DNA of 64,000 bases from Candidatus Kerfeldbacteria bacterium (GCA_963731735.1 CAVSWO010000002.1:628257-692256), one strand, 5' to 3'; positions 4,404 to 56,106 are shown, counted from the stretch's first letter. Numbers and translations are program-made. Notes: generated by a model from the sequence alone, not told the origin.

Positions 4404-4407
4404 ATCG

Positions 4408-4833
4408 ATGCCGGTCCGGATACCCTCAAGTCCGCTGTTTTCCGTACTCCGAAAGCTTGATCTGCCGGCAAAGAATTATGTGGTCTTTGGCAGCGGCCCG
4501 CTCTGGGTGCGGGGATTACGCGAATCGCACGATTTGGATATCCTGGCCCGTGGTTCCGCCTGGGAGCGGGCCAAACAGGTCGGTCAACTTGGAACAGTCG
4601 TCGGGAGTGACCGCCCGGTGGTGCGAATTCCCGGGATGGCGATTGAAATTTTTGATACCTGGTACCCGGGCGCCTGGGACGAACAGGGGATCATTGACCG
4701 GGCGGAAATGATAGATGGGTTGCCGTTTGCCAGCTTGGCGGATGTCCAAGCCTGGAAAAAGCGGATGGGCCGCCCGAAAGATTTAGCTGACCTCCGTCTG
4801 CTAGCTGAATATGTAACACAGCCCAGCCAATAA
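4408..4833 (+). CDS. minimal nucleotidyltransferase-fold protein
   Basis: The sequence VVFGSGPLWVRGLRESHDLDIL matches the GS-x(9-13)-D-h-D NTase signature. The start is placed at ATG 4408, immediately after the Clp stop. The track ORF 4261..4833 has an implausible N-terminus. Confidence 0.5.
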   Translation: MPVRIPSSPLFSVLRKLDLPAKNYVVFGSGPLWVRGLRESHDLDILARGSAWERAKQVGQLGTVVGSDRPVVRIPGMAIEIFDTWYPGAWDEQGIIDRAEMIDGLPFASLADVQAWKKRMGRPKDLADLRLLAEYVTQPSQ

Positions 4834-4916: not shown

Positions 4917-6278
4917 ATGGCCAAGCTCGAAACGACCAAGATGGACCAGATTGTGAACCTGGCGAAACGCCGAGGTTTTGTTTTTCCGAGCGCGGAGATT
5001 TATGGCGGCCTGGGCGGTTTTTGGGACTGGGGTCCGCTCGGGGTCCTACTCAAGAACAATATCAAACAGGAATTTTGGAAAACATTTGTCCAGCAACGCG
5101 ATGATGTGGTTGGGCTGGATGGTTCAATTATTACCAACCCGAACGTTTGGCAGGCCAGCGGTCATGTCGCCGGATTTGCCGACGAATTAGTCGAGTGCAA
5201 AAAATGCCACCATCGGTTTAAGGCAGACGATGTTGAAGCCAAGTGCCCGGATTGCGGCGGCGATTTTACTCCAGCCCGAAAATTCAACACTATGTTTCGG
5301 ACCTTTGTCGGTCCAGCCGAGGAGAGCGCGAGTACCGCGTATTTGCGTCCCGAAACCGCCCAAAATATTTTTGCGAATTTTGAACTGGTTCGGGAGTCGC
5401 TGCGTAAAAAATTACCGTTTGGAATCGCGCAAATTGGTAAAGCTTTTCGGAATGAAATCACCCCCGGCAACTTCATTTTCCGCTCGCGGGAGTTTGAACA
5501 AATGGAGATTGAGTACTTTGTAAAACCCGGCGATGATGATCAAGTCTTTGATCAATGGGTGCGGGCTTGCCATCAGTGGTTCTTAGACCTCGGGCTTTCG
5601 AAGGACAACCTGCGTTTAGCTCAACAGCCGGTGGCGGAATTAGCGCACTATGCTAAAGCTACCACCGATATCGAATTTGCCTTCCCAATCGAAAAAGGCT
5701 GGGCCGAGCTGATGGGCGTGGCTAATCGCACTGATTATGATTTACGGCAACATGGCCAGCATGCTCGGGCTGATGAAAACGCCTTCGCAACCGCCATCGA
5801 TTCTGAAGGCCGGACAAAAAAAGTCCCGTATGTGATTGAGCCGTCGATGGGCGTTGACCGAGCCGCGCTCGCCTTCATACTTGATGCCTACACAGTCATT
5901 AAAGGGGGACGCTCGACCACAACCGAAAGTATCAAAGAAGCGGAAGTTGTTTTGAAACTCCATCCAAAACTCGCGCCGTACAAAGCGGCGATTTTACCCT
6001 TGTCAAAAAAACCAGCCCTGCAAAAAATTGGGCAAGAAATAGCCAAGACGCTTCGACAGCAATGGTTTATCGATTACGACGAAACTGGGTCGATCGGCAA
6101 ACGCTATCGCCGTCAGGATGAAATCGGGACGCCGCTGTGCATCACGGTCGACTTTGATACGATTGAAGGCACCAAGCGCCCAAAACAAACCGTGACCGTC
6201 CGCAATCGCGATACCATGGCCCAAGCGGCGGTGGCGATTGAAGACTTGCCTGCGTATGTGGCGAAAACTCTGGCCTAG
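4917..6278 (+). CDS. glyQS: glycyl-tRNA synthetase, alpha2 (class II) type
   Basis: The sequence FRNEITPGNFIFRSREFEQMEIEYF is class II motif 2. Length is 453 aa, and the HCKKCHHRF...CPDCGG insertion is typical of GlyRS. Confidence 0.9.
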   Translation: MAKLETTKMDQIVNLAKRRGFVFPSAEIYGGLGGFWDWGPLGVLLKNNIKQEFWKTFVQQRDDVVGLDGSIITNPNVWQASGHVAGFADELVECKKCHHRFKADDVEAKCPDCGGDFTPARKFNTMFRTFVGPAEESASTAYLRPETAQNIFANFELVRESLRKKLPFGIAQIGKAFRNEITPGNFIFRSREFEQMEIEYFVKPGDDDQVFDQWVRACHQWFLDLGLSKDNLRLAQQPVAELAHYAKATTDIEFAFPIEKGWAELMGVANRTDYDLRQHGQHARADENAFATAIDSEGRTKKVPYVIEPSMGVDRAALAFILDAYTVIKGGRSTTTESIKEAEVVLKLHPKLAPYKAAILPLSKKPALQKIGQEIAKTLRQQWFIDYDETGSIGKRYRRQDEIGTPLCITVDFDTIEGTKRPKQTVTVRNRDTMAQAAVAIEDLPAYVAKTLA

Positions 6279-30056: not shown

Positions 30057-30710
30057 TTATTTTCGCCTCTTCGTCGAACGCTTTGTGTACTTTGCGGGTG
30101 ATACAGTACATACAAAGCTCATCCAATTATTGCCGCCTTCCGATTTCTGGAACTGCTTGATAACTCGGAAACCATGTTCCCGCAGAATGTTCCTAAATTC
30201 ATTTTTGGAATAAAAGGCAAAAAATCTCGTTACACCGCCGTATTTTTCTTGCGTGATTACTTGTTCATCAACATTACTTTTTTCTTTCATCGAAACCACA
30301 AACATGCCTTGCGGTGTTAACAGACGGCGAATAGAACGAAGGACCTTCGGCAGCCGCCTTTTTGGAATATGGAGCAAGGTAGCAATAGACCACACTGCAT
30401 CAAACTGGTGAGCCGGAAAGCGGAGATCATAAAAGCTCATTTTCTTGAATGTGCCCTTTGGATTGAGTTTTTGTGCTAACGCTAAGAGTCCTTTTGAAGC
30501 GTCGGTACCGATGTAGTCAAAACCGGCCTGAAGTAGATCATGTGCGTCTCGACCGCCCCCACACCCGATTTCGAGGACGCGGTTGCCGTGAATTTGGCGA
30601 TGAAGTTCATCCAGTTCATCTTTCCAAAAATGAAACATCCGATTCGTTGTAGCATACTTCGGCGCAATTTTGTCGTAGGCTTCGATTGTTTGTTTTGTGC
30701 GTAAGTCCAT
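30057..30710 (-). CDS. class I SAM-dependent methyltransferase (Methyltransf_11-like)
   Basis: Motif I reads VLEIGCGGGRDAHDL. It is the first gene of the AT-rich island and is convergent with the helicase gene. Confidence 0.75.
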   Translation of the reverse strand: MDLRTKQTIEAYDKIAPKYATTNRMFHFWKDELDELHRQIHGNRVLEIGCGGGRDAHDLLQAGFDYIGTDASKGLLALAQKLNPKGTFKKMSFYDLRFPAHQFDAVWSIATLLHIPKRRLPKVLRSIRRLLTPQGMFVVSMKEKSNVDEQVITQEKYGGVTRFFAFYSKNEFRNILREHGFRVIKQFQKSEGGNNWMSFVCTVSPAKYTKRSTKRRK

Positions 30711-30921
30711 GAGCGAAAATAATTTATTTCCGATAACGTTTGCGCGTACACGATTTTACGTAGTATATCGGGTACGCGCTGTTGTACGGAGTCGGGGTTC
30801 CGAACATTGACAAGTGTCAGGTTCTATGTAAAAGTCTAACACACTTTGTACATTCCCTGGTAGCTTAGATTCAACAGGGCGTTGTTTCTAGGTAGCCATC
30901 GACTCATTAGGAGACATAGCC

Positions 30922-31251
30922 ATGAGTAGTGGTAGTGTCGCCCGACAGGAGCGCGAGTTTCTGGCGTGTGTGATCCGTCATCTCCCAGAGCTTTTTCCAA
31001 ATGAACGGCAGGCGTGGATTGAAAACCAGGATCTTCTGTCCGAAAGGTTGGAGCTAGCCCTGGACATGGTAAGCCCCAGGATCAAACTCCTTGAACGTCT
31101 AAATGAAGGAGTGACGCGCGTCACAAAAAAAGGTCATGCCGCCAAGATAAGACTCTTTCTGTTCAATCTTGGCTCTGAAGACCAAGTGACTGTCGATAAG
31201 CTTGCACGAGCAATCGTTCAAGCTGTTGACCCAGCATCACTCAAAGAGTAG
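30922..31251 (+). CDS. hypothetical 109-aa protein
   Basis: The gene has a TTGACA-16-TAAAAG promoter-like element, an AGGAGA RBS 7 nt before the ATG, and a strong terminator. The product is not recognised. Confidence 0.55.
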   Translation: MSSGSVARQEREFLACVIRHLPELFPNERQAWIENQDLLSERLELALDMVSPRIKLLERLNEGVTRVTKKGHAAKIRLFLFNLGSEDQVTVDKLARAIVQAVDPASLKE

Positions 31252-31265
31252 TGGCACAGATAAGT

Positions 31266-31309
31266 AACGGACTTCGAGATTACATCAACGAGTCCGTTTA
31301 ATTTTTTTA
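31266..31309 (+). terminator. intrinsic terminator
   Basis: The hairpin AACGGACT-(16 nt)-AGTCCGTT is followed by TAATTTTTTT. Confidence 0.7.
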
Positions 31310-31394
31310 CTAGGAACCCCGATTTCGTACAACGTTTGCGTCTCATACGACCGTCTGCCGTAGCAATAGCGAAGGCAGATGTCGTATAGACGCT

Positions 31395-31418
31395 GTTAGG
31401 AGATGTAACAATAGGGTC
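31395..31418. repeat. left copy of the 24-bp inverted repeat GTTAGGAGATGTAACAATAGGGTC
   Basis: Matches the reverse complement of 32072..32095 at 22 of 24 positions. It abuts the stop codon of the kinase gene. Confidence 0.8.
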
Positions 31419-32055
31419 ACTTGGTTAGTAGTTTAATCGCTTTCTTCAGCTGTCCGCTAAAATCGTTGTCCATGTTGAGAACCTTGAATTTGTACTTCCG
31501 CGCTTCTTTATTAAAAAACTGTCCATAGTAACTGACCATTTGTGCGATTTTGTACAAAGTCTTTTTGTTTAAAGTCTTGCGAAGTATCCAATCGTTTGGA
31601 GTTGAGCTTTTCTTTGTATCATGCACAAACTTTTCAATATCAGACTTCACAAGAAAAAGAACGCGGAAATGTTTACCGCCATATTTTTTAATAAGTCGAG
31701 CTGCAAGTTGTGGCGTTATGTGGTAGCCCTCTAGAATGTAGTCATTCCCATCTTTGATTTCAGATATGGCAAACATATCTAAAGCATCATAACTTGCTAC
31801 AGCTTGCTTCATGTAATTTTTGGCAACCCGATGTGGAGTGTTGCGTGAATATGTTTCATCATTTGTTTTACCTTTTTTGGAACTGTGAGGATACAATCTC
31901 GCAAGCGCTTGCTTGGAGACATACTTCGAAACATATTCACGAACTACAACTTGCAGCGTGTCAGAAGCAACCCACTGGATTCCGAGCCCTTTGGACAGTT
32001 TTTTGGCGAGTGTGGTCTTACCACATTTTGGCGGACCACCGATTAAATAAATCAT
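31417..32055 (-). CDS. P-loop NTPase/kinase-fold protein, possibly a nucleoside/nucleotide kinase
   Basis: The Walker A motif is IYLIGGPPKCGKTTLAKKL. Length is 212 aa. The gene is AT-rich. Confidence 0.65.
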   Translation of the reverse strand: MIYLIGGPPKCGKTTLAKKLSKGLGIQWVASDTLQVVVREYVSKYVSKQALARLYPHSSKKGKTNDETYSRNTPHRVAKNYMKQAVASYDALDMFAISEIKDGNDYILEGYHITPQLAARLIKKYGGKHFRVLFLVKSDIEKFVHDTKKSSTPNDWILRKTLNKKTLYKIAQMVSYYGQFFNKEARKYKFKVLNMDNDFSGQLKKAIKLLTK

Positions 32056-32071
32056 AGTTGTGATTCAGCAA

Positions 32072-32095
32072 GACCCTATTGTTATTTCTCCTAAC
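32072..32095. repeat. right copy of the 24-bp inverted repeat (GACCCTATTGTTATTTCTCCTAAC)
   Basis: Lies 17 nt upstream of the kinase start codon. It is the reverse complement of the 31395..31418 repeat. Confidence 0.8.
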
Positions 32096-32265
32096 GTCAG
32101 GGATATACGAAGTTTTGCGACGAAGGAGTAAAATTTGGGTGAGGGGCGAGCCGAGCCCCGAACCGTATGTCCCTTGTTAAGTGACCCGAACGGAATGAAA
32201 TGGAGTGAGAGCGCAGCGGGGCTTGAGTTGAGGATTTGTCCTTCATTATAAAAAAGGGCAAAAAA

Positions 32266-33084
32266 TTATTTTTCAGCAACCCAAAATAATCTGTGACTAC
32301 TTAATTTTATACCTTCCTTGTTAAGTTTTTTATCAACCTCTTCAAGATGTGCCTTGTCTTTCATTTTATCAAAATCTGGAATTATTGGGGCTCTTTCAAG
32401 AATTTCTATAACATCGTTAATTGACGAATACACCTGATGAAATTTAAAGTATTTTGATTCAACGAGTTTCATTCCAGATTGTGCCAATAATTTTTTTACT
32501 AATTCAAGTTTTGTTTTCTGATTAGGATAATTTTGCCCTCTTCTAAAAATTTTTTTGAGTTCGATTTTATCCTTCTCGCCAATAGTTTCTTCAATCATCA
32601 GCCCTCCTTTTTTTAAAACGCGAAAACTTTCTCTAATAAAATCAATGTTGGCAGAAAGGGGTCCTCTTGAGCTGAAAATAATATCAAAATGGTCATCTTC
32701 AAAAGGCAAATTTTTTCCATCTGCAACCTTGAAAATAACATTTTTAGCTTCAACAGATTTTTTAAGTTTATCTGCGGATTTTATGTAATCCTCAAAAGGA
32801 TCAATGCCAACAATTTCTTTAAAAAATGGGGAAAGTTTGAGTGTTAGTTCGCCAGACCCACATCCCAAATCCAATATTTTAAAATTTTTGTTGGCGAATT
32901 TTTTAAGAAACTCAAAAAAATTTGGTTTTTCTCCAGCGATTAATTTACCTTGTCCATGAAGCTCGTATTTTTTAAATTTCGTTGAACTTTTCTTATAAAA
33001 AATATCGTGATGATCTTTCATGTTTGTCTTGTTATTAAATAATTTTTTGCCCCTATATATTTTTGGACAAATCCTCAATTTCAC
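32266..33084 (-). CDS. class I SAM-dependent methyltransferase, very AT-rich
   Basis: Motif I is ILDLGCGSGELTL, and the post-I acidic residue and FEDDHFDIIFS are present. The start may be the internal MKDHH at ~33021. Confidence 0.7.
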   Translation of the reverse strand: MKLRICPKIYRGKKLFNNKTNMKDHHDIFYKKSSTKFKKYELHGQGKLIAGEKPNFFEFLKKFANKNFKILDLGCGSGELTLKLSPFFKEIVGIDPFEDYIKSADKLKKSVEAKNVIFKVADGKNLPFEDDHFDIIFSSRGPLSANIDFIRESFRVLKKGGLMIEETIGEKDKIELKKIFRRGQNYPNQKTKLELVKKLLAQSGMKLVESKYFKFHQVYSSINDVIEILERAPIIPDFDKMKDKAHLEEVDKKLNKEGIKLSSHRLFWVAEK

Positions 33085-33280
33085 TTAACGATTGCGCGTA
33101 GGCGAAGTTCGTCGGTGATACAATCGTACCATCACCGGCGAACTTAGGCGAGCGGTTTCTAGGGGATGGCCTTCGGGCGGCCACAGAAACCCGAGCCGCC
33201 TACGCGCTGTTGTACGATGATTTGCCGACCGCCGCATATGTAAAAGAAAAGCGTGGTTGTCTCCATGTTACCCGACATTC

Positions 33281-33335
33281 TTGACACGAACTAATCCTTA
33301 TGCTATCCTGCTTTGTCAATTCATGGTGAATTGAC
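33281..33335 (+). promoter_or_regulatory. sigma70-like promoter (TTGACA-17-TATCCT) followed by a perfect 9-bp palindrome GTCAATTCA-TGG-TGAATTGAC, a putative operator
   Basis: Read directly from the sequence. The palindrome lies at the predicted transcription start. A GGAGG RBS lies 7 nt before ATG 33358. Confidence 0.55.
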
Positions 33336-33357
33336 TGCTCCTTTCGGAGGTAGAGCG

Positions 33358-33660
33358 ATGCCAGACATTCGCGTGTCCATTCCTCATCGGCTCGGCAAGC
33401 CCGAAGCGCTCAAGCGAGTTCGCACGCTCCTGACGAACGTCAAGCGTGACCATGGTGACCAGGTCAGCAACCTCGAGGAGCGCTGGCATGACAACGGTGC
33501 CAGGTTCAGCTTCAGTACCATGGGCTTCGATGTCTCGGGGCAGCTGACCGTGAGTGACCGAGAAGTCACTGTCACGGGCAAGCTCCCCTGGCTGGCGGGC
33601 ATGTTCAAGGGTCAGATCGAGGACACGATCCGCGATCAGGCCAGCGAGCTTCTCGTCTAG
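33358..33660 (+). CDS. small protein resembling the 'putative polyhydroxyalkanoic acid system protein' family (PHA_gran_rgn-like)
   Basis: The sequence MPDIRVSIPHRLGKPEALKRV...GQLTVSDREVTVTGKLPWLAGMFKGQIEDTIRD fits the ~95-aa family pattern. The track start of 33313 was replaced by the RBS-supported ATG at 33358. Confidence 0.5.
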   Translation: MPDIRVSIPHRLGKPEALKRVRTLLTNVKRDHGDQVSNLEERWHDNGARFSFSTMGFDVSGQLTVSDREVTVTGKLPWLAGMFKGQIEDTIRDQASELLV

Positions 33661-33691
33661 GGCGCTCCAAGGAATCATCTCCGATAACATG

Positions 33692-33730
33692 GGTCCGGGA
33701 GTAGCGATACTCTCGGACCTAGCTTTTCTT
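33692..33730 (+). terminator. intrinsic terminator
   Basis: A 12-bp stem GGTCCGGGAGTA-GCGA-TACTCTCGGACC is followed by TAGCTTTTCTT. Confidence 0.65.
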
Positions 33731-33899
33731 ACAACATAGGGAGGCAAATTTTCGTACAACGTTTCGGCGTAGACGATAGTGGCGACAGCGCGGAGGCGGT
33801 ACACTTTTCTTGACCGCCGGAGCGACGAGCCATTTCGCGTATACACCAGTGCTTTATATGACGTTTCAGTCTGTCTAATCATACTACCAGCCGGTGTCT

Positions 33900-34343
33900 T
33901 CAGTAAAACTTTCCTATACCAATGTTCTCTAGGGCAAGTTTTGTCTTGAGGCAACACATTGACTGGAAGGTTGCCGATGGAAAAACCAGGTGAGAGCATT
34001 CCATTGATCTCCAGGTTCCATATTTGTTCATTTCTACTGTCCATTTATCTGCAGTGAGGTACAATATCAAAGTCATTCTCGATCTGTAGAAAGTCTGTGC
34101 ATGATGTGAACAAGCTTTAACATCCTCAGGTGCAAGTATTATCCCAGCTTCTTCATGAGATTCGCGAATAATAGTCTCTTTTGCTCCGTTGTTTTCGCGA
34201 CCTTCCAGATGACCAGCAACCACACTGTAATTTCCATCTTGATAGCCTGTATTTAATATCTTCGGAGAAGTAAAACTTGCCCATCTTTTTTCAAGGACAA
34301 GATAAGCTGCTACGAAGGCTCTGAACTTTTCTTTGCTGTACAT
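33900..34343 (-). CDS. NUDIX hydrolase, possibly frameshifted near 34050
   Basis: The Nudix box GHLEGRENNGAKETIIRESHEEAGI is present. The overlapping ORF 33316..34044 in another frame reads NEQIWNLEINGMLSPGF, which resembles the usual Nudix C-terminal region. A perfect TATAAT -10 and an ATACGAAC-agag-GTTCGTAT palindrome lie upstream. Confidence 0.65.
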   Translation of the reverse strand: MYSKEKFRAFVAAYLVLEKRWASFTSPKILNTGYQDGNYSVVAGHLEGRENNGAKETIIRESHEEAGIILAPEDVKACSHHAQTFYRSRMTLILYLTADKWTVEMNKYGTWRSMECSHLVFPSATFQSMCCLKTKLALENIGIGKFY

Positions 34344-34465
34344 AAGTTTATTCTCTAACAGACAGAAGACGAAATGCCATATAACTCGTTATTATACGAA
34401 CTCTGTTCGTATCATAGCCCCTCGAGCCGGGTTTGGCCAGAAAAATACTGAATATATTATGCCAT

Positions 34466-34497
34466 AAAGAAAAACCCCACGGACGAAACGCGCGGGG
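34466..34497 (-). terminator. intrinsic terminator downstream of tRNA-Arg
   Basis: On the minus strand, the hairpin CCCCGCGCG-tttcgtcc-GTGGGG is followed by TTTTTCTTT. Confidence 0.55.
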
Positions 34498-34506
34498 TTG
34501 GATGTG

Positions 34507-34578
34507 AACATTGAGTGAGATTTGAACTCACGACCTTCTCCTCCGTAGGGAGACGCTCTATGACTGAGCTATCAATGC
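34507..34578 (-). tRNA. tRNA-Arg (anticodon ACG) with an atypical D-loop lacking GG
   Basis: Manual fold: acceptor stem GCATTGA/TCAATGT (G1-T72 wobble), D-stem GCTC/GAGC with loop AGTCATA, anticodon stem TCTCC/GGAGA with loop CTACGGA, T-arm GTGAG-TTCAAAT-CTCAC. Length 72 nt, with no encoded CCA. Confidence 0.65.
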
Positions 34579-34582
34579 TCTT

Positions 34583-34865
34583 ATTTGATTAGTTCAATGA
34601 ACAGATGAGGTGACGAGCGCTGCAAAGGCAGCAATGGGATGGTTCGTTCGCAACCGCTCCCACCTCTACCAGAAAGGAGGCTCGTCACCAAAAAAGAATG
34701 GAGGGACACGCGGTGGCGTCTCGTGCCGCTGGAAGGATTCCAGGCAGCTTGCGGCCCCTCCAAGGAGCCGGCATGGGGGAATTGCCCGACAAGGCATCCC
34801 GCACAAGCATCATGCTTGCCTCGGTGTTTTTTGCGAGGACACCAGAGCCCATGCCGGAAATGACC
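34583..34865 (-). ncRNA. structured non-coding region of unknown identity
   Basis: No credible ORF. Several long-range complementary segments are present: CCGGCATGGG...CCCATGCCGG, GGTGACGAGC...GCTCGTCACC, CAAGCATGATGCTTG and CTGGAATCCTTCCAG. Confidence 0.3.
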
Positions 34866-34943
34866 GGAAGAAAAGCGAGCAGAGAGCCGAAGCCGGTGTC
34901 TCCAGCAACACCCGTGCCCGGGAACATTGCACGCTCTGCTCGC
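34866..34943 (-). terminator. long terminator-like hairpin following the tRNA-like gene
   Basis: On the minus strand, GCGAGCAGAG...(49 nt with an internal GCTTCGGC tetraloop)...CTCTGCTCGC is followed by TTTTCTTCC. Confidence 0.4.
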
Positions 34944-34948
34944 CAATG

Positions 34949-35060
34949 CGACGGAGGCGGGAATCGAACCCGGATCTCGAGAACTTTCCGTTTCGATCTG
35001 ACCATCTCGAGATCGTGCTGGCTTGGGAAAGCCAGCCTGTACCACACAGCCTCCTCCGTC
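34949..35060 (-). ncRNA. 112-nt noncanonical tRNA-like gene with an 8-bp acceptor stem, 4-bp T-stem and very long extra arm (tRNA-Sec / allo-tRNA-like architecture)
   Basis: Minus strand: GACGGAGG...(A)GGCTGT-GTGGT-ACAGGC / GCTGGC-TTTCCCAA-GCCAGC / a 10-bp extra arm GATCTCGAGA...TCTCGAGATC / CGGG-TTCGATT-CCCG / CCTCCGTC-G. The anticodon loop has 8 nt, so the anticodon is ambiguous. CCC is the likeliest, with U33 and A37. Confidence 0.5.
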
Positions 35061-35111
35061 AATGCTGTTAAGAACCTGGCGCACCGTATCATGCGGGCCG
35101 AAATCAGTCAA

Positions 35112-35760: not shown

Positions 35761-36189
35761 ATGTCGTTGGTGCGATTTCTGATTATCGTAACTGTTGGGA
35801 CGCTGTGCGCCTGGGGCGCTTGGGTGATGGTTATTTTGACGCTTGACCCGCAAACGGGCGGTGCGGTGGCGGTTGGCCTGTTCAGTTTAAGTTTGTGGCT
35901 GGCCCTGATCGGGACGATCACCTTGGCGGGATTTTTTCTGCGCTACTGGCTGGAAAAACAAGCCGTGCCGTTCCGGCAATTGGGCATCGCTTTCCGCCAA
36001 GCCGTGATTGTCGGCAGTTTAGCGGTCCTGGGGTTACTGCTCCAGGCCGGGCGGATCTTGCACTGGTGGACGATCGTCATGATCGTGGCCTTTGGATTGC
36101 TGGTGGAATTCTACGCCCTGGCCGGCGACGCGCGCCGTCCGAATACGGTTGACCATGAACCGCAGCAACCACAACCAACCGCCGACTAA
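35761..36189 (+). CDS. small polytopic membrane protein
   Basis: Four hydrophobic helices (IIVTVGTLCAWGAWVMVILTL etc.). No motif recognised. Confidence 0.5.
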   Translation: MSLVRFLIIVTVGTLCAWGAWVMVILTLDPQTGGAVAVGLFSLSLWLALIGTITLAGFFLRYWLEKQAVPFRQLGIAFRQAVIVGSLAVLGLLLQAGRILHWWTIVMIVAFGLLVEFYALAGDARRPNTVDHEPQQPQPTAD

Positions 36190-36898
36190 TCCCATGGACC
36201 ACGGCCACCTGCATCCGCTTACCCAGTACGCCCGTCGAGTGCTCGACGTCTGGCGCAGTCTTGGCTATGACTTGCATACCGGACCCGAGCTGGAAACCGC
36301 TTGGTTCACCTTTGACGGGTTGAATGTCCCGCCGGATCACCCGGCTCGGGATATCCAGGACACCTTCTTTATTAAAGACCATGACGATCTGGTCTTGCGG
36401 ACGCACGCTTCGACGGTCCAATTACGCTGGCCGAAGTCTCATCGGGCCAAACCGCCGTATCGGGTGGTGGAAATCGGCAAAGTTTACCGCCATGAAGCAA
36501 CCGACGCCACCCACGAGTCGATGTTCTTCCAGTGCGACGGGGTGCTAATTGACCGCCAGGTAACGATGGCGCAGCTGGTCACGACGCTCCGGGCCTTCAT
36601 TAAAAAACTTTATCCGGACAAAAAATCGCGTATCCGACCGAGCTTCTTTCCGTTCGTCGAACCGGGGATTGAACTTGATGTCTGGTGGGAACAGCCGGGC
36701 AAGGACGGAAAATGGTTGGAGATTCTCGGCGCCGGGTTGGTGCATCCGCGCGTGATTGAAAACATGGGCTTCGATCCGAAGGACTGGCAGGGGTTTGCGT
36801 TCGGCTGGGGACTCGATCGTTTGGCGATGCTCGAATTCGGTATCCAAGATATCCGCCTGTTCTATAACGGCAATCTTGAATTTTTGAAACAGTTCTAA
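36158..36898 (+). CDS. pheS: phenylalanyl-tRNA synthetase alpha subunit, catalytic core only (start uncertain: 36158 or 36194)
   Basis: Aligns from GHLHPLTQYARRV...FTFDGLNVPPDHPARD onward with the E. coli PheS core. Class II motifs FRPSFFPFVEPG and GAGLVHP are present. It lacks the N-terminal helical region. Confidence 0.8.
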   Translation, partial: NRSNHNQPPTNPMDHGHLHPLTQYARRVLDVWRSLGYDLHTGPELETAWFTFDGLNVPPDHPARDIQDTFFIKDHDDLVLRTHASTVQLRWPKSHRAKPPYRVVEIGKVYRHEATDATHESMFFQCDGVLIDRQVTMAQLVTTLRAFIKKLYPDKKSRIRPSFFPFVEPGIELDVWWEQPGKDGKWLEILGAGLVHPRVIENMGFDPKDWQGFAFGWGLDRLAMLEFGIQDIRLFYNGNLEFLKQF

Positions 36899-52587: not shown

Positions 52588-54336
52588 TTACAACGTCAGT
52601 TTACGCGCTTGGACAATTTTTTGTGAACTTGCCAAAAACGCCTTGAGCGTTGTTTGGCGCATAACTTTTTTGCCGCGGACCCGGACGGCAATCTGCTTGA
52701 GGGATTTTTCTTTATCACCAATGACGATGGTGTAGGGCACTTTCTGCTTTTCAGCCTTGCGAATTTTATAACCGACGGTTTCATCGGCCTGATCCAGATG
52801 GACGCGCATCCCAGCCTCGGCCAGTTGACGGAATAATTTTTTGCCGGTCGGGTTATGTTTTTTCGCCACGGTCGCGATTTGGACTTGGACCGGCGATAAC
52901 CAGAGCGGGAAGGCCCCACCGAAGTGTTCAATCAGAATAGCCAAGTAGCGCTCAATCGAACCCATAATTGCGGCGTGAATCATCACAATTCGTTCAGGTT
53001 CACCCTGTTCATTGATGCAGGATAAGGAAAATCGCTCCGGCATATTCATATCAAGTTGAATGGTGGCCAGCTGCCATTCCCGGCCGAGGGAATCAATCGA
53101 GATGAAGTCGATTTTCGGTCCATAGAAGGCCGCCTCGCCAATCGCTTCCGTAACCTTGGCCTGTTCGGCTTTGGCTACCTGGCGGAGCAAGGTTTCTGCG
53201 GTTTTCCAGCTAGCTGCTTGGCCCAGATATTTTTCCGGTTGCTTGGGATCGTGGAGTGACAGACGAACCTGCAATTCGAATCCGGCCGCTCGATAAAATG
53301 TTTTCACGATTTTCCAGATCGCCCGCATTTCCGATTCGACCTGGGACAACCGACAGAAGACGTGGGCGTCATCCTGGGTGATGGCGCGAACCCGGGCCAG
53401 GCCGGCGAGTTCGCCGGTCTGTTCGTCGCGGTAGACTTTGGTCGTACTAGCGTACCGTTGCGGCAATTCACGATAGGAATGCTGTTTGCGCGCGTAAATT
53501 TGCGTATGGTGCGGACAGTTCATCGGCTTAATCGCGAATAGGTGCCCCTCACGCGTTTTGACCTTAAACAATTCATCGCTAAATTTCTGCCAATGGCCGC
53601 TGCGTTCATACAGATCTTTCTTGGTCAGGTGGGGGATGTCGACGCGCTGATACCCGGCGGCCTGACGAAGTTCCCAGACATAGGTATCAAGCGTATCGCG
53701 GAGGAGCGTTCCCTTGGGTGTCCAGAGTGGCAAACCGCCCCCGACTAATTCGCTAAAGGTAAACAGATCGAGTTCCGGGCCAAGAATTTTATGATCGCGT
53801 TTTTTCGCTTCGGCTTGCTGCCGCGTGTAGACTTCTAGTTCCGCCTTGGTCGCGAAAGCTAAACCATAAATGCGCTGCAGCATCGGTTTTGTGCTGTCCC
53901 CGCGCCAATAGGCGCCCGCGATATGTGTCAACCGAAAGGCGTCGGGATTGATGTCACCGGTATTAGCCACATGGCCGCCACGGCAAAGATCGATAAAATC
54001 ACCCACTTGATAAAATGTCGGCGTTTGACCTTGGGACTTTATTTCTTCCAGCAATTCTTGCTTGTACGGTTGGCGTTCGATGTATTCGGCCACCCCAGGT
54101 GTTTCAACGCCGACCGCCCGCATTGGCAACCGCTGCTTGATTAAATGACGCATGCGCTTCTCGAGTTGTTTCAGCTGATCAGGGTGAACTGATTGGTCCA
54201 GGTCGATATCATAATAAAAACCATTCGCAATCGTCGGGCCGATGGCAAATTTGGCTTTTGGATACTGGTCCTGAACGGCGTGGGCCAATAGATGTGCTAA
54301 GGTGTGCCGAATCTGATCGAGTTGTTGGGTTGACAT
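52588..54336 (-). CDS. thrS: threonyl-tRNA synthetase lacking the N-terminal TGS domain
   Basis: From MSTQQLDQIRHTLAHLLAHAV... the sequence aligns with the N2 domain onward. The class II core and anticodon-binding domain are present. The 89-codon upstream extension in the track ORF looks non-coding. Confidence 0.85.
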   Translation of the reverse strand: MSTQQLDQIRHTLAHLLAHAVQDQYPKAKFAIGPTIANGFYYDIDLDQSVHPDQLKQLEKRMRHLIKQRLPMRAVGVETPGVAEYIERQPYKQELLEEIKSQGQTPTFYQVGDFIDLCRGGHVANTGDINPDAFRLTHIAGAYWRGDSTKPMLQRIYGLAFATKAELEVYTRQQAEAKKRDHKILGPELDLFTFSELVGGGLPLWTPKGTLLRDTLDTYVWELRQAAGYQRVDIPHLTKKDLYERSGHWQKFSDELFKVKTREGHLFAIKPMNCPHHTQIYARKQHSYRELPQRYASTTKVYRDEQTGELAGLARVRAITQDDAHVFCRLSQVESEMRAIWKIVKTFYRAAGFELQVRLSLHDPKQPEKYLGQAASWKTAETLLRQVAKAEQAKVTEAIGEAAFYGPKIDFISIDSLGREWQLATIQLDMNMPERFSLSCINEQGEPERIVMIHAAIMGSIERYLAILIEHFGGAFPLWLSPVQVQIATVAKKHNPTGKKLFRQLAEAGMRVHLDQADETVGYKIRKAEKQKVPYTIVIGDKEKSLKQIAVRVRGKKVMRQTTLKAFLASSQKIVQARKLTL

Positions 54337-54412
54337 AAGCGTCGAACTATGATAGTAACAAATTGTTCTTTCAGGAGTGCCGAGATCAGCGTCGTTCTCC
54401 AGAGGAGGGAGC

Positions 54413-54724
54413 ATGACCCGCATGCGTGAGCTCCACGATTGGCCGGCGGCCGTGGTGGTTGAGAATCTGGCCGAACCGTCACTCAAATTACCGCCGCATT
54501 GCTCACCCGCGATGGTTCCCGGTACGACCTTCGTGAAGTACCGATCGGGCCGGACGGCTGAGCGTCTGCTGCAACATCTGTTCGAGGAAATCGAGCTGGC
54601 CATGGTGGCCAGTCCAGCGTCCCGTCCCGATTGGGACAGCCTGGAAGTCTTTCAACTCGATCATCGTATCCGAGGTCGATGGGACGGGGCGGTGCGCCTC
54701 AAGATTCATCCGCGGTTGGAGTAA
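54413..54724 (+). CDS. hypothetical 103-aa protein, divergent from thrS
   Basis: A GAGGAGGGAGC RBS lies directly before the ATG at 54413. No motif recognised. Confidence 0.4.
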   Translation: MTRMRELHDWPAAVVVENLAEPSLKLPPHCSPAMVPGTTFVKYRSGRTAERLLQHLFEEIELAMVASPASRPDWDSLEVFQLDHRIRGRWDGAVRLKIHPRLE

Positions 54725-54963
54725 TCCGACCGCTTTTTTTTCGCAAAGAACCAACCATCACTGTCTGATGTTTGGGACCCACGAGTTTGTTCGGGGCGGT
54801 TCCACCCAACTTTTCGGGCCGCGATTGCGGCGCGAACGCTCACTTGGTTGTTTGGCGCTTAGTCTCCGGTTGGAGAATCGGACTGATTCCGGCTTGGTAA
54901 GCCGAACAATCGCGCTGCAGTGATTGTACCGTTTTTCACCAGGACGTCAACCTGATAGCCCGG

Positions 54964-56106
54964 TCAAGATGAAGAATTACTATTTTGCTTGCCGGGAGCG
55001 GGATCTTGGGGCGTCTCGAGACGGACCGTAATCCGATCGGCTTGCGCCGAGGTGGCGGTCCGCCACCAGGGTGCGATCTTGACGAGCACCCGATCAACTT
55101 GTTGAGAACCTAACAATCGCTTAGTGATATCCTCTTGCGACAGACTAGTAAAACGGCTGGGTTGGAGGATCGGATTTTTTGGACTCAAGCTGGCGGTGGC
55201 GGTCCCGGTGACGCTGATGGTCAGACTGTCGAGCGCCGGTTGTTCGACGAAGGTGAGTTTGATTGGGTCAACCGAAACGATGATCTGGCCGTCGGCCAGC
55301 GCATCAGTCAGCCGTTGCCTGATCAAGGCGTCTAGCGCGGATTGGTCGAAGGTCGCCGTAATGACTTTGGCCTCGACGGTGATGGTGTACTGATCGCTGG
55401 GCGTATCGGGATCGGGATCAGCACTGACCGAAACTGGTTGAACCGTTCGAAAAGTTCCGGCTGAACTGGCGCCGACCCGGTCGAGAATTTTCTGTTGGGC
55501 CTGGTTGCTGGCTTGATTTAACCCTTGACTCCCAAGGACGCCAGCCGCCGTGGTGGTGCCGCCGGTAAAGACCTGATCAGTTGTTCCGTAGACGAGCGCT
55601 TGATTGGCCGGACGCAGCGCCACGATGGTCAACCGGCCGGGTTCAATTTCACCTTCCGGTCCAAGCGGATCAGCCACCGCTTCGATTTGGATAGTGCCGT
55701 GGGCAGGCACATCGACACGGTCGACCGTCCGGACAATTACGCCGCCGGTGGACTGCAGCCGGGTATTGGTCGCCAGCGGTTGGCTGGCACTCGAGTCATT
55801 ATGAATCGTCACTTGGCCGCGAGCATGGGCGGGAACTGCTTCACCCTGGTCGTTCGGTTGGGCAGAGACCGTGGCAGATTCCTGACTAACCGTGACGTCT
55901 CCGGCCAATCCATTCGGACCTTCGCCGTCCGGACTGATGGTCAGTGTCAGATCGGTCTTGACCGGCGTGGTTTTTGGGAAAACCGTGATGGTTGTTCGTG
56001 ACCACCCGGTGTACCCTAACCCCCCCAGCACCAGCACTACCAACGCAATAAACACCAGGCTGATCGTTCGGTAGCGTTGCTGCAAATGTGCTTGGGCCAA
56101 AGACAT
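54964..56106 (-). CDS. signal-anchored secreted Thr/Ala/Gln-rich protein of unknown function, downstream of dnaE
   Basis: The ATG at 56106 lies 1 nt after the dnaE TAG. The N-terminus MSLAQAHLQQRYRTISLVFIALVVLVLGG is a single TM segment. Confidence 0.5.
   Translation of the reverse strand: MSLAQAHLQQRYRTISLVFIALVVLVLGGLGYTGWSRTTITVFPKTTPVKTDLTLTISPDGEGPNGLAGDVTVSQESATVSAQPNDQGEAVPAHARGQVTIHNDSSASQPLATNTRLQSTGGVIVRTVDRVDVPAHGTIQIEAVADPLGPEGEIEPGRLTIVALRPANQALVYGTTDQVFTGGTTTAAGVLGSQGLNQASNQAQQKILDRVGASSAGTFRTVQPVSVSADPDPDTPSDQYTITVEAKVITATFDQSALDALIRQRLTDALADGQIIVSVDPIKLTFVEQPALDSLTISVTGTATASLSPKNPILQPSRFTSLSQEDITKRLLGSQQVDRVLVKIAPWWRTATSAQADRITVRLETPQDPAPGKQNSNSSS

What the first reader, a model, noticed from the sequence alone, without database searches (positions are those of the whole stretch)
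34583..34948. ~370-nt structured non-coding region between the tRNA-like gene and tRNA-Arg
No protein-like ORF is present. On the minus strand there are many long-range complementary pairs: CCGGCATGGG/CCCATGCCGG about 90 nt apart, GGTGACGAGC/GCTCGTCACC enclosing about 60 nt, the perfect palindrome CAAGCATGATGCTTG, the hairpin CTGGAATCCTTCCAG, and GGAGGGG...CCCTCC followed by a T-run. Together with the tRNA-like gene, this makes a ~530-nt RNA-gene-only interval on the minus strand. I tested it by eye against tmRNA and RNase P RNA and found no tag reading frame ending in ALAA-stop. The RNase P CR-I and CR-V-like strings are not in the right order. It may be an undescribed structured RNA, or the decayed ends of integrated elements stacked at the tRNA.
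Basis: seen in the sequence. Interest (0 to 1): 0.6.

Follow-up and report, generated by a model that had tools for sequence, protein, structure and literature searches.

The report
Structured orphan spacer in tRNA array
The 370 bases between an odd tRNA-like gene and tRNA-Arg in this Kerfeldbacteria (CPR) genome do fold into four tight stem-closed modules, but they match no known RNA family, have no counterpart in any related genome, and contain at least one recognisable tRNA-gene remnant, so they look like a lineage-specific patchwork inside a fast-changing tRNA gene array rather than a conserved new RNA.

Summary
Window 34579-34949 (minus strand) folds far better than shuffles (z -3.7). With the adjacent tRNA-like gene it holds four perfect 10-bp inverted repeats within about 410 nt, where about 0.06 are expected. 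The fold is modular, not one long-range fold: four independently closed modules, A to D, of 64-90 nt, separated by 5-30 nt linkers.

Rfam (gathering and E<=10) and ARAGORN find nothing. tmRNA, RNase P RNA and tRNA membership are rejected.

The organism is a Candidatus Kerfeldbacteria relative. In 14 syntenic loci from relatives, this spot is either empty or holds a different set of tRNAs and aberrant tRNA-like genes. None has a sequence or structure homolog of the 370 nt. No close relative is public, so covariation cannot be tested.

The first 28 nt are a gutted copy of the neighbouring tRNA-Arg (0 of 1000 shuffles match it). Module C may carry a fragment like the 3' end of a tRNA-like family found in relatives, but that match is weak and was tested post hoc.

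Best reading: a lineage-specific stretch of a tRNA/tRNA-like gene array, at least partly derived from tRNA genes and co-transcribed from one upstream promoter. An orphan functional RNA is not excluded, because the closing stems are flawless. Interest is modest.

The parts
35083..35111 (-). The only sigma-70-like promoter on this strand for the interval: TTGACT, 17 nt, TACGGT
   Evidence: My own relaxed scan. The same TTGAC(A/T)-N17-TAnnnT form precedes the RNA arrays in relatives L002, L003, L006, L008, L010, L014, L015, L027 and L028 (read). No other promoter-like site lies on the minus strand between 35083 and 34506.
34950..35060 (-). Adjacent tRNA-like gene. It has an 8-bp acceptor stem, a 4-bp T stem with a canonical T loop, a 10-bp variable arm and no 7-nt anticodon loop. 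It bounds the finding on its 5' side.
   Evidence: Rfam tRNA-Sec scores 29.5 bits, below the gathering score of 47. ARAGORN does not call it. Fold z is -3.82. GCATTG lies directly on both sides, at 35065-35060 and 34949-34944.
34922..34949 (-). Gutted copy of tRNA-Arg: GCATTG (tRNA positions 1-6), AGAGCGT (20-26) and CAATGTTC (66-73), in the same order, within 28 nt
   Evidence: Chain of exact matches totalling 21 nt. None of 1000 dinucleotide-type shuffles reached it (maximum 18, mean 8.4).
34874..34944 (-). Module A. A Y-shaped fold closed by a perfect 10-bp helix (34943-34934 with 34884-34875). It contains a cUUCGg tetraloop hairpin at 34894-34885 and is followed by UUUUCUU.
   Evidence: z -2.54. 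The minus strand folds better than the plus strand (-35.8 against -30.6 kcal/mol). The 5' arm of the helix is part of the tRNA-Arg remnant.
34768..34857 (-). Module B. A 90-nt four-way junction (cloverleaf shape) closed by the perfect 10-bp helix CCGGCATGGG/CCCATGCCGG, with three hairpins including CAAGCA-UGA-UGCUUG.
   Evidence: z -3.87; the centroid structure equals the MFE structure. Covariance model R2 finds no other copy in the window or in 12 related loci.
34699..34762 (-). Module C. A Y-shaped fold closed by UGGAGGGG/CCCUCCA and followed by UUCUUUUUU (34698-34690), so it looks like an intrinsic terminator. Positions 34740-34723 (GAATCCTTCCAGCGGCAC) resemble the 3' end of the relatives' family (i) tRNA-like genes.
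   Evidence: z -2.62. nhmmer with the family (i) profile makes this the second-best hit in the 64-kb window at E 1.7, below significance on that scale. An 11-mer is shared with L002, L006 (twice) and L014.
34609..34689 (-). Module D. An 81-nt long irregular hairpin closed by the perfect 10-bp helix GGTGACGAGC/GCTCGTCACC. The helix resembles the acceptor stem of family (i) tRNA-like genes.
   Evidence: z -4.61. Model R1 finds no other copy. The family (i) model R3 aligns only the closing helix (8.7 bits, E 0.029 over 1 kb).
34579..34608 (-). AT-rich 30-nt leader of tRNA-Arg. With the first 7 nt of the tRNA it forms TAAGAGCATTGA (34583-34572), which repeats TAACAGCATTGA at 35070-35059.
   Evidence: the repeat finder family D1, 11 of 12 identical. 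GC content falls below about 34600.
34506..34578 (-). tRNA-Arg(ACG). It bounds the finding on its 3' side, and an intrinsic terminator follows it (stem 34497-34475, T-run 34474-34466).
   Evidence: ARAGORN; Rfam tRNA 62.7 bits; terminator read.

Best explanation
The 370 nt are not one RNA gene. They are a lineage-specific stretch of a tRNA/tRNA-like gene array, made of four independently folding, stem-closed modules of 64-90 nt separated by 5-30 nt linkers. That spacing is the spacing of a tRNA array.

Shown:
- The modules are real and local.
- They match no known family.
- They are absent from every available relative.
- The same chromosomal spot in relatives carries a different, fast-changing set of tRNAs and aberrant tRNA-like genes.
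- The first 28 nt are a gutted duplicate of the neighbouring tRNA-Arg.

Suggested but weak:
- Module C carries a fragment like the 3' end of a relatives' tRNA-like gene.
- The closing helix of D resembles that family's acceptor stem.

Inferred:
- The stretch arose by duplication, insertion and deletion of tRNA(-like) units.
- Acceptor-like closing stems were kept, or were remade as perfect hairpins.
- The whole interval is transcribed from the single promoter at 35111 together with the tRNA-like gene and tRNA-Arg.
- The modules are trimmed away as by-products when the flanking tRNAs are matured.
- The U-runs after A and C act at most as leaky terminators.

On this reading no conserved function of its own is expected.
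For: Modularity and excess structure.

No known family.

Hypervariable array at the same spot. The syntenic interval lies between the AddA-like helicase and the HATPase_c_2-like gene. It is empty in L012 and L013. L008 holds a small ORF there. L002, L003, L006, L007, L010, L014, L015, L027 and L028 each hold a different mix of tRNAs and tRNA-like genes. L004 holds stem-closed modules.

No homolog of the 370 nt was found by any of these searches:
- BLAST and nhmmer against the related loci.
- Covariance models of modules B and D.
- The phage database.
- Closing-helix patterns in IMG/VR.
- One 20-mer in JGI metagenomes.
- One ORF translation against 5.8 billion proteins.

tRNA-Arg remnant: 0 of 1000 shuffles reach the observed chain.

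Family (i) fragment in C and acceptor-like helix of D. Both are weak.

Shared 8-mers with relatives' arrays in the sense orientation only: 39 against 24 +/- 6 expected, P 0.013; antisense 20.

Transcription unit: one promoter, and one clean terminator after tRNA-Arg.

Strand: the cUUCGg tetraloop and the U-runs that follow stems are minus-strand features.
Against: The three closing helices total 30 bp with no mismatch and no G-U pair. The tRNA-Arg remnant beside them is heavily degraded. Neutral decay should have damaged the stems too, so either they are young or they are selected, which would favour a functional RNA.

Modules B and D show no significant similarity to any tRNA or tRNA-like gene. 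The similarity of C to family (i) is only E 1.7 on the whole window and was tested after I had noticed it. The match of D is confined to its closing helix.

Transcription and processing are inferred from sequence alone. Relatives separate their tRNA genes by only about 10 nt, so a long spacer is not needed for processing.
Confidence: 0.5

Rival explanations
1. One or several orphan functional small RNAs. The modules, especially the cloverleaf-shaped B and the long hairpin D, would be released from the tRNA operon transcript and act on their own as a new, lineage-restricted class of tRNA-shaped or stem-closed RNAs.
For: Flawless 10-bp closing helices next to a degraded tRNA remnant. Strong fold scores with the centroid equal to the MFE for B and D. 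A cUUCGg tetraloop. In relatives the same array holds stem-closed tRNA-like RNAs that are conserved across four loci, with some pairs kept through changes on both sides.
Against: No homolog in any relative or database searched. Both strands fold equally well. No promoter of its own. No close relative exists, so no covariation evidence is available.
Confidence: 0.25
2. Leftover ends of integrated mobile elements (att-site scars) stacked at tRNA genes.
For: A low-GC block of about 4.5 kb (30057-34600) carries methyltransferases, P-loop kinases, a NUDIX protein and tRNA-Arg itself. It is absent from relatives and abuts the region. Direct repeats are present: TAA(C/G)AGCATTGA at 35070-35059 and 34583-34572, and GCATTG on both sides of the tRNA-like gene. 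L006 carries a partial duplicate of a tRNA-like 3' end.
Against: The tRNA-Arg 3' end has no second copy of 12 nt or more anywhere in the window. None of the ten neighbouring ORFs I tested has an integrase or transposase domain. The remnant keeps both the 5' and the 3' end of the tRNA, which fits a deleted gene copy rather than an att duplicate. The 370 nt have host-like GC, unlike the island.
Confidence: 0.1
3. A regulatory cassette. Modules A and C would be intrinsic terminators or attenuators that set how much transcription from the 35111 promoter reaches tRNA-Arg.
For: GC-rich closing stems are followed by UUUUCUU (A) and UUCUUUUUU (C) on the minus strand only. tRNA-Arg has no promoter of its own.
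Against: The stems enclose 50-nt branched interiors. The terminator scan does not call them, yet it does call the simple hairpin at 35143-35122. This reading leaves B and D unexplained. Relatives use plain terminators and separate promoters inside their arrays.
Confidence: 0.08
4. A protein-coding gene. One of the four ORFs of 135-176 aa that run through the region would be real.
For: The frames are open on both strands. A gene caller annotated a 121-aa product here in the Logan contig.
Against: None of the four has a Pfam match at E<=1. The + strand ORF has no homolog in 5.8 billion proteins. All four read through the tRNA-like gene, whose T arm gives the typical antisense-tRNA peptide. No ribosome-binding site is evident.
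Confidence: 0.02

Closest known systems
Stable by-product RNAs of tRNA operon transcripts, such as rtT RNA of the E. coli tyrT operon (Rfam RF00391; my own knowledge)
   Same: A structured, non-tRNA stretch lies inside a tRNA transcription unit. It would be co-transcribed and freed when the tRNAs are cut out. Its function is unclear.
   Different: There is no sequence or model match. rtT comes from a repeated unit downstream of the tRNA. Here four unrelated modules lie between a tRNA-like gene and a tRNA. Co-transcription has not been shown.
tRNA pseudogenes and tRNA-like units in bacterial and phage tRNA gene arrays (my own knowledge)
   Same: Units are tandem, 64-111 nt long and separated by short linkers. 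Each is closed by an acceptor-like helix. One unit begins with a demonstrable remnant of the neighbouring tRNA.
   Different: Modules A-D lack T-loop and D-loop signatures and score nothing with the tRNA model, even at E<=10. Their closing helices are 10 bp and flawless, not 7 bp and decaying.
allo-tRNA and tRNA-Sec-type tRNAs with 8/4 acceptor/T stems (Mukai et al., PMC5389517). This comparison concerns the adjacent tRNA-like gene.
   Same: An 8-bp acceptor plus a 4-bp T stem, and a long variable arm. The paper notes that allo-tRNA genes occur in phage tRNA clusters, and that one is a pseudogene overlapping a transposon-related ORF.
   Different: The window's tRNA-like gene has no 7-nt anticodon loop; it has an 8-bp stem with a 4-nt loop, or a 6-bp stem with an 8-nt loop. 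It scores below the tRNA-Sec threshold. The 370-nt region itself is not tRNA-shaped by any model.
Intervening sequences (stem-closed insertions) of bacterial and CPR rRNA genes (my own knowledge)
   Same: Lineage-specific structured blocks, closed by a strong helix, sit inside stable-RNA transcription units. In relatives, similar blocks sit inside T loops and variable arms of tRNA(-like) genes.
   Different: Here the modules lie between genes, not inside one. RNase III processing is untested. No shared sequence.

Membership tests
tmRNA (standard and permuted) | A tRNA-like domain formed by the 5' and 3' ends, a tag reading frame, and pseudoknots. Detectable by ARAGORN and by Rfam tmRNA models. 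| tested here: not met
   ARAGORN finds no tmRNA in the window. The only Rfam trace is an 11.1-bit, 15-nt match of tmRNA_permuted to the T arm of the adjacent tRNA-like gene. Nothing is found in the 371 nt alone.
Bacterial RNase P RNA | The conserved P4 helix (CR-I and CR-V) in the correct order, matching the Rfam RNase P models. | tested here: not met
   No RNase P hit at the gathering score or at E<=10 with lax filters on 1 kb and on 371 nt.
tRNA or tRNA pseudogene (RF00005) | A cloverleaf with T-loop and D-loop consensus. | tested here: not met
   Only tRNA-Arg and the tRNA-like gene score. None of A-D appears even at E<=10. B has cloverleaf topology only. The 28-nt remnant at 34949-34922 is related to tRNA-Arg by sequence but is not a cloverleaf.
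Conserved structured ncRNA family (generic) | Homologs in related genomes, with pairings kept through compensatory changes. | tested here: not met
   No homolog in 14 syntenic loci or in the other collections searched. Covariation itself cannot be tested, because no close relative is public.
Intrinsic (Rho-independent) terminator, for modules A and C | A GC-rich hairpin immediately followed by a U-run on the transcribed strand. | tested here: inconclusive
   U-runs follow A and C. The hairpins are branched, 64-72 nt long, and the scan does not call them. No 3'-end data are available.
Integrative-element att scar at a tRNA | A direct repeat of the tRNA 3' end bracketing foreign DNA, with an integrase nearby or traces of one. 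| tested here: not met
   No second copy of 12 nt or more of the tRNA-Arg 3' end in the window. No integrase domain in the 10 neighbouring ORFs tested. Short direct repeats do exist, so a weaker version is not excluded.
MITE or REP-type dispersed repeat | Many copies in the genome, terminal inverted repeats, and target-site duplication. | tested here: not met
   No other copy in the 64-kb window by BLAST or by covariance models R1 and R2. No flanking duplications around A-D (read). The rest of the genome could not be searched.
Family (i) tRNA-like genes of relatives (tRNA-Ser-derived; model R3) | An acceptor stem of GGTGGCGATG type, a class II D arm (TGCCTGAGAGGACGA), and a T arm (GAAGGTTCGAATCCTTC). 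| tested here: not met
   R3 aligns only the closing helix of D (8.7 bits, E 0.029 over 1 kb). nhmmer aligns only 18 nt of C. These may be fragments of such a gene; neither module is a member.

The most novel reading that the evidence does not exclude
The modules, together with the aberrant tRNA-like genes at the same spot in relatives, could be members of an undescribed, fast-evolving class of tRNA-derived, stem-closed RNAs in Kerfeldbacteria. Some of those relatives' genes carry 70-115 nt structured inserts in the T loop or variable arm. On this reading the RNAs would be made from tRNA operons and kept by selection on their closing helices. They might be mobile: GCATTG flanks the tRNA-like unit directly on both sides.
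Probability: 0.2. Interest if true: 0.65.

Novelty: new variant of a known kind. Interest (0 to 1): 0.35.

Why it matters
If the ordinary reading holds, the region shows how tRNA gene arrays in small CPR genomes turn over. They leave strongly structured debris that looks like a new RNA gene and that gene callers mis-annotate as protein.

If the modules prove to be stable RNAs, they and the neighbouring aberrant tRNA-like genes would open a lineage-specific class of tRNA-derived RNAs in an uncultured phylum. Nothing is known about small RNAs in that phylum.

Tried and rejected
Rejected readings:
- tmRNA, RNase P RNA, tRNA, and every other Rfam family, including rtT, self-cleaving ribozymes and the large ornate RNAs. 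No hits at the gathering score or at E<=10.
- One large fold held by long-range pairs. The MFE and centroid structures are four local domains.
- Choosing the strand from folding energy. The two strands are nearly equal.
- Protein coding.
- An integron attC site. Reading the three closing-helix arms by eye, I saw no GTTRRRY core. This is inspection of the sequence, not a scan.

Searches for homologs that found nothing:
- PheS-anchored loci in GTDB genomes.
- Ten look-ups of contigs encoding close PheS relatives.
- BLAST and nhmmer against those loci.
- Single-sequence covariance models of D and B.
- The phage database by blastn.
- Closing-helix patterns in IMG/VR, which gave six chance hits with unrelated interiors.
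- A protein search with the neighbouring HATPase_c_2-like gene, meant to find closer relatives. It found only itself.

Other checks:
- Plain local alignment of tRNA-Arg or the tRNA-like gene to the region was not significant. The remnant only emerges when large deletions are allowed.
- Chains of shared words with the relatives' arrays were not significant for 7 of 8 loci.
- Literature searches found nothing on tRNA insertions or tRNA-like arrays in CPR.

Full report
OBSERVATION

On the minus strand, window 34949-34579 lies between a tRNA-like gene and tRNA-Arg(ACG).
- The tRNA-like gene is at 35060-34950. It scores 29.5 bits on the Rfam tRNA-Sec model, below the gathering score of 47, and ARAGORN does not call it.
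- tRNA-Arg(ACG) is at 34578-34506.

Counting the variable arm of the tRNA-like gene, four perfect 10-bp inverted repeats fall within about 410 nt. Shuffled copies of the window give 8.8 per 64 kb, which is about 0.06 for 410 nt.

The 371 nt fold at -157.5 kcal/mol against -136.0 for shuffles (z -3.68). The other strand folds almost as well (z -3.61).

An independent Logan assembly is identical over 35688-34411, so the arrangement is not an artefact of one assembler.

ANATOMY

The fold is not one long-range structure. It is four local, independently closed modules:
- A (34944-34874): Y-shaped, with a cUUCGg tetraloop, followed by UUUUCUU.
- B (34857-34768): a 90-nt four-way junction.
- C (34762-34699): Y-shaped, followed by UUCUUUUUU.
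- D (34689-34609): a long irregular hairpin.

Their fold z-scores are -2.5, -3.9, -2.6 and -4.6. Linkers are 5-30 nt.

Several features mark the minus strand as the RNA strand:
- The flanking genes are on it.
- The UUCG loop and the U-runs that follow stems are minus-strand features.
- A and C fold slightly better on it.
- The only promoter-like site is on it: TTGACT-17-TACGGT at 35111-35083. The same form precedes the arrays in relatives.
- A clean terminator follows tRNA-Arg.

Four ORFs of 135-176 aa cross the region. None has a Pfam match, and the one tested has no homolog in 5.8 billion proteins.

KNOWN FAMILIES

Rfam finds only tRNA-Arg at the gathering score in the whole window. At E<=10, on 1 kb and on the 371 nt alone, it adds only the tRNA-like gene and noise. 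ARAGORN finds no tmRNA. tmRNA, RNase P RNA, tRNA and the other curated families are rejected.

CONTEXT

PheS places the window in Candidatus Kerfeldbacteria. The best PheS relative is 84% identical.

Gene order is conserved: AddA-like helicase, then a variable interval, then a HATPase_c_2-like gene on the minus strand, a small membrane protein, PheS and PheT.

The variable interval differs from locus to locus:
- It is empty in L012 (58 nt) and L013 (36 nt).
- It holds a small protein gene in L008.
- In L002, L003, L006, L007, L010, L014, L015, L027 and L028 it holds a different mix of ordinary tRNAs (Thr, Ile, Lys, Ser, Arg-CCU) and aberrant tRNA-like genes.
- In L004 it holds stem-closed modules.

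One aberrant family, which I call family (i), recurs in L002, L006, L014 and L015, and more distantly in L003. Its features are:
- a 10-bp acceptor stem;
- a class II D arm;
- a canonical T arm;
- a very long variable arm;
- an anticodon loop whose length is not conserved.

Its covariance model also scores an ordinary tRNA-Ser, so the family looks tRNA-Ser-derived. Other units carry 70-115 nt structured inserts in the T loop or D loop, closed by 9-10 bp helices.

In the window, the interval additionally contains a low-GC block (30057 to about 34600). It carries methyltransferases, P-loop kinases, a NUDIX protein and tRNA-Arg itself. Relatives lack this block.

SEARCH FOR HOMOLOGS

Nothing resembling the 370 nt was found in any of these searches:
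- The 14 related loci, by BLAST or nhmmer.
- Structure-aware models of modules D and B.
- The phage database.
- IMG/VR, where only chance hits with unrelated interiors appeared.
- One 20-mer in JGI metagenomes, where only chance hits in coding sequence appeared.

The fast-evolving neighbouring protein has no homolog but itself. No close relative of this organism is therefore public, and covariation cannot be tested.

REMNANTS

The first 28 nt of the region (34949-34922) read GCATTG-GCGAGC-AGAGCGT-G-CAATGTTC. That is positions 1-6, 20-26 and 66-73 of the neighbouring tRNA-Arg, in the same order. No shuffle out of 1000 gives so long a chain. This is a gutted copy of tRNA-Arg. Its D-arm part forms the 5' arm of the perfect closing helix of module A.

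Further, weaker signals:
- GCATTG also lies directly 5' of the tRNA-like gene (35065-35060), so the tRNA-like unit is flanked by this hexamer on both sides.
- The 12-mer TAA(C/G)AGCATTGA precedes both the tRNA-like gene and tRNA-Arg.
- Module C contains GAATCCTTCCAGCGGCAC, which matches the T-arm and acceptor 3' end of family (i) at 16 of 18 positions. It is the second-best nhmmer hit in the window, but at E 1.7. The 11-mer is shared with four family (i) copies.
- The closing helix of D is the second-best match of the family (i) model in the 1-kb region, but only the helix aligns.
- Shared 8-mers with the relatives' arrays are enriched in the sense orientation only (39 against 24 +/- 6, P 0.013; antisense 20).

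Only the tRNA-Arg remnant is strong. The other signals were noticed first and tested afterwards, so they count as leads.

EXPLANATION

The best-supported reading is that this is a lineage-specific stretch of a tRNA/tRNA-like gene array. It would have been built by duplication, insertion and deletion of tRNA(-like) units. It would be transcribed from the one promoter with its neighbours and trimmed away during tRNA maturation.

The main difficulty is the quality of the stems. The three closing helices total 30 bp with no mismatch and no G-U pair, next to a badly degraded tRNA copy. Either the hairpins are young or they are under selection. Template switching during replication is known to create perfect inverted repeats in one step (my own knowledge). 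Selection would mean that at least B and D are functional orphan RNAs.

I put the by-product reading at 0.5, orphan functional RNA(s) at 0.25, att-type scars of mobile elements at 0.1, a terminator or attenuator cassette at 0.08, and protein coding at 0.02.

COMPARISON AND NOVELTY

In how it would work, the region is closest to two things (both from my own knowledge):
- stable by-products of tRNA operon transcripts, such as E. coli rtT RNA;
- pseudo-tRNA units in tRNA arrays.

It is a member of neither by sequence or model.

The adjacent tRNA-like gene resembles 8/4 allo-tRNAs (PMC5389517) but lacks a normal anticodon loop.

I rate the region a new variant of a known kind. It is a real, unusually well-structured, unconserved tRNA-array spacer. 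The more interesting object is the hypervariable array of aberrant tRNA-like genes across Kerfeldbacteria, which this finding led to.

Noticed in passing
window 34950-35060 (minus), flanks 35060-35065 and 34944-34949: The adjacent tRNA-like gene has an 8-bp acceptor stem, a 4-bp T stem with a canonical T loop, and a perfect 10-bp variable arm. It has no 7-nt anticodon loop (GCUGGCUU-UCCC-AAGCCAGC). The hexamer GCATTG flanks it directly on both sides, like a target-site duplication.
   Followed up: partly
L002 4715-4842, L006 5231-5361, L014 1495-1638, L015 5824-5961, L003 4477-4628 (all minus): A recurrent tRNA-Ser-derived tRNA-like family in Kerfeldbacteria. It has a 10-bp acceptor stem, a class II D arm, a canonical T arm and a 40-70 nt variable arm. 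The length of its anticodon loop is not conserved (7, 8 or 11 nt). ARAGORN calls none of these genes, and Rfam's tRNA model does not reach its threshold in the loci I scanned (L002, L003).
   Followed up: partly
L003 about 4165-4330 and 4341-4441; L015 about 5475-5618; L006 about 4975-5068; L015 about 5640-5735 (minus): tRNA genes with otherwise normal acceptor, D and anticodon arms (Thr-CGU, Gly-GCC, a GCA-anticodon unit) carry 30-115 nt structured inserts. The inserts sit in the T loop or D loop and are closed by 9-10 bp helices, some with UUCG loops. I know of no described bacterial equivalent.
   Followed up: no
L006 about 5085-5110 (minus): A partial duplicate of the 3' end of the family (i) gene (GGATCGAATCCTTCCATCGCCAC) lies about 140 nt downstream of the intact gene. 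This is what an att-type duplication or a truncated second copy would look like.
   Followed up: no
window 30057-34600: A low-GC block (26-50% GC over long stretches) that relatives lack lies between the helicase and the RNA interval. It carries two SAM methyltransferases, a P-loop kinase-like protein, a PHA-granule-type protein, a NUDIX protein and tRNA-Arg(ACG). L028 has an AAA_28 gene at the same spot.
   Followed up: partly
window 54773-54842 (minus), within the 520-nt gap 54604-55123: The leader upstream of threonyl-tRNA synthetase (52588-54603, minus) contains a T-box-like core (AAGTTGGGTGGAACCGCCCCG). Its match to Rfam T-box is very weak (14.8 bits, E 0.43). A promoter-like site lies at 54950. 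It may be a divergent T-box riboswitch.
   Followed up: partly
window 36092-36898 and relatives: PheS in this clade is a short form of 234-268 aa without the N-terminal PF02912 domain. Other Kerfeldbacteria have the usual form of 325-335 aa.
   Followed up: no
window 33094-33104 with 33197-33207, and 31844-31857 with 31928-31941: Two further perfect inverted repeats lie in the low-GC block. An 11-bp pair encloses 92 nt in an intergenic gap, and a 14-bp pair encloses 70 nt inside the P-loop kinase-like gene.
   Followed up: no
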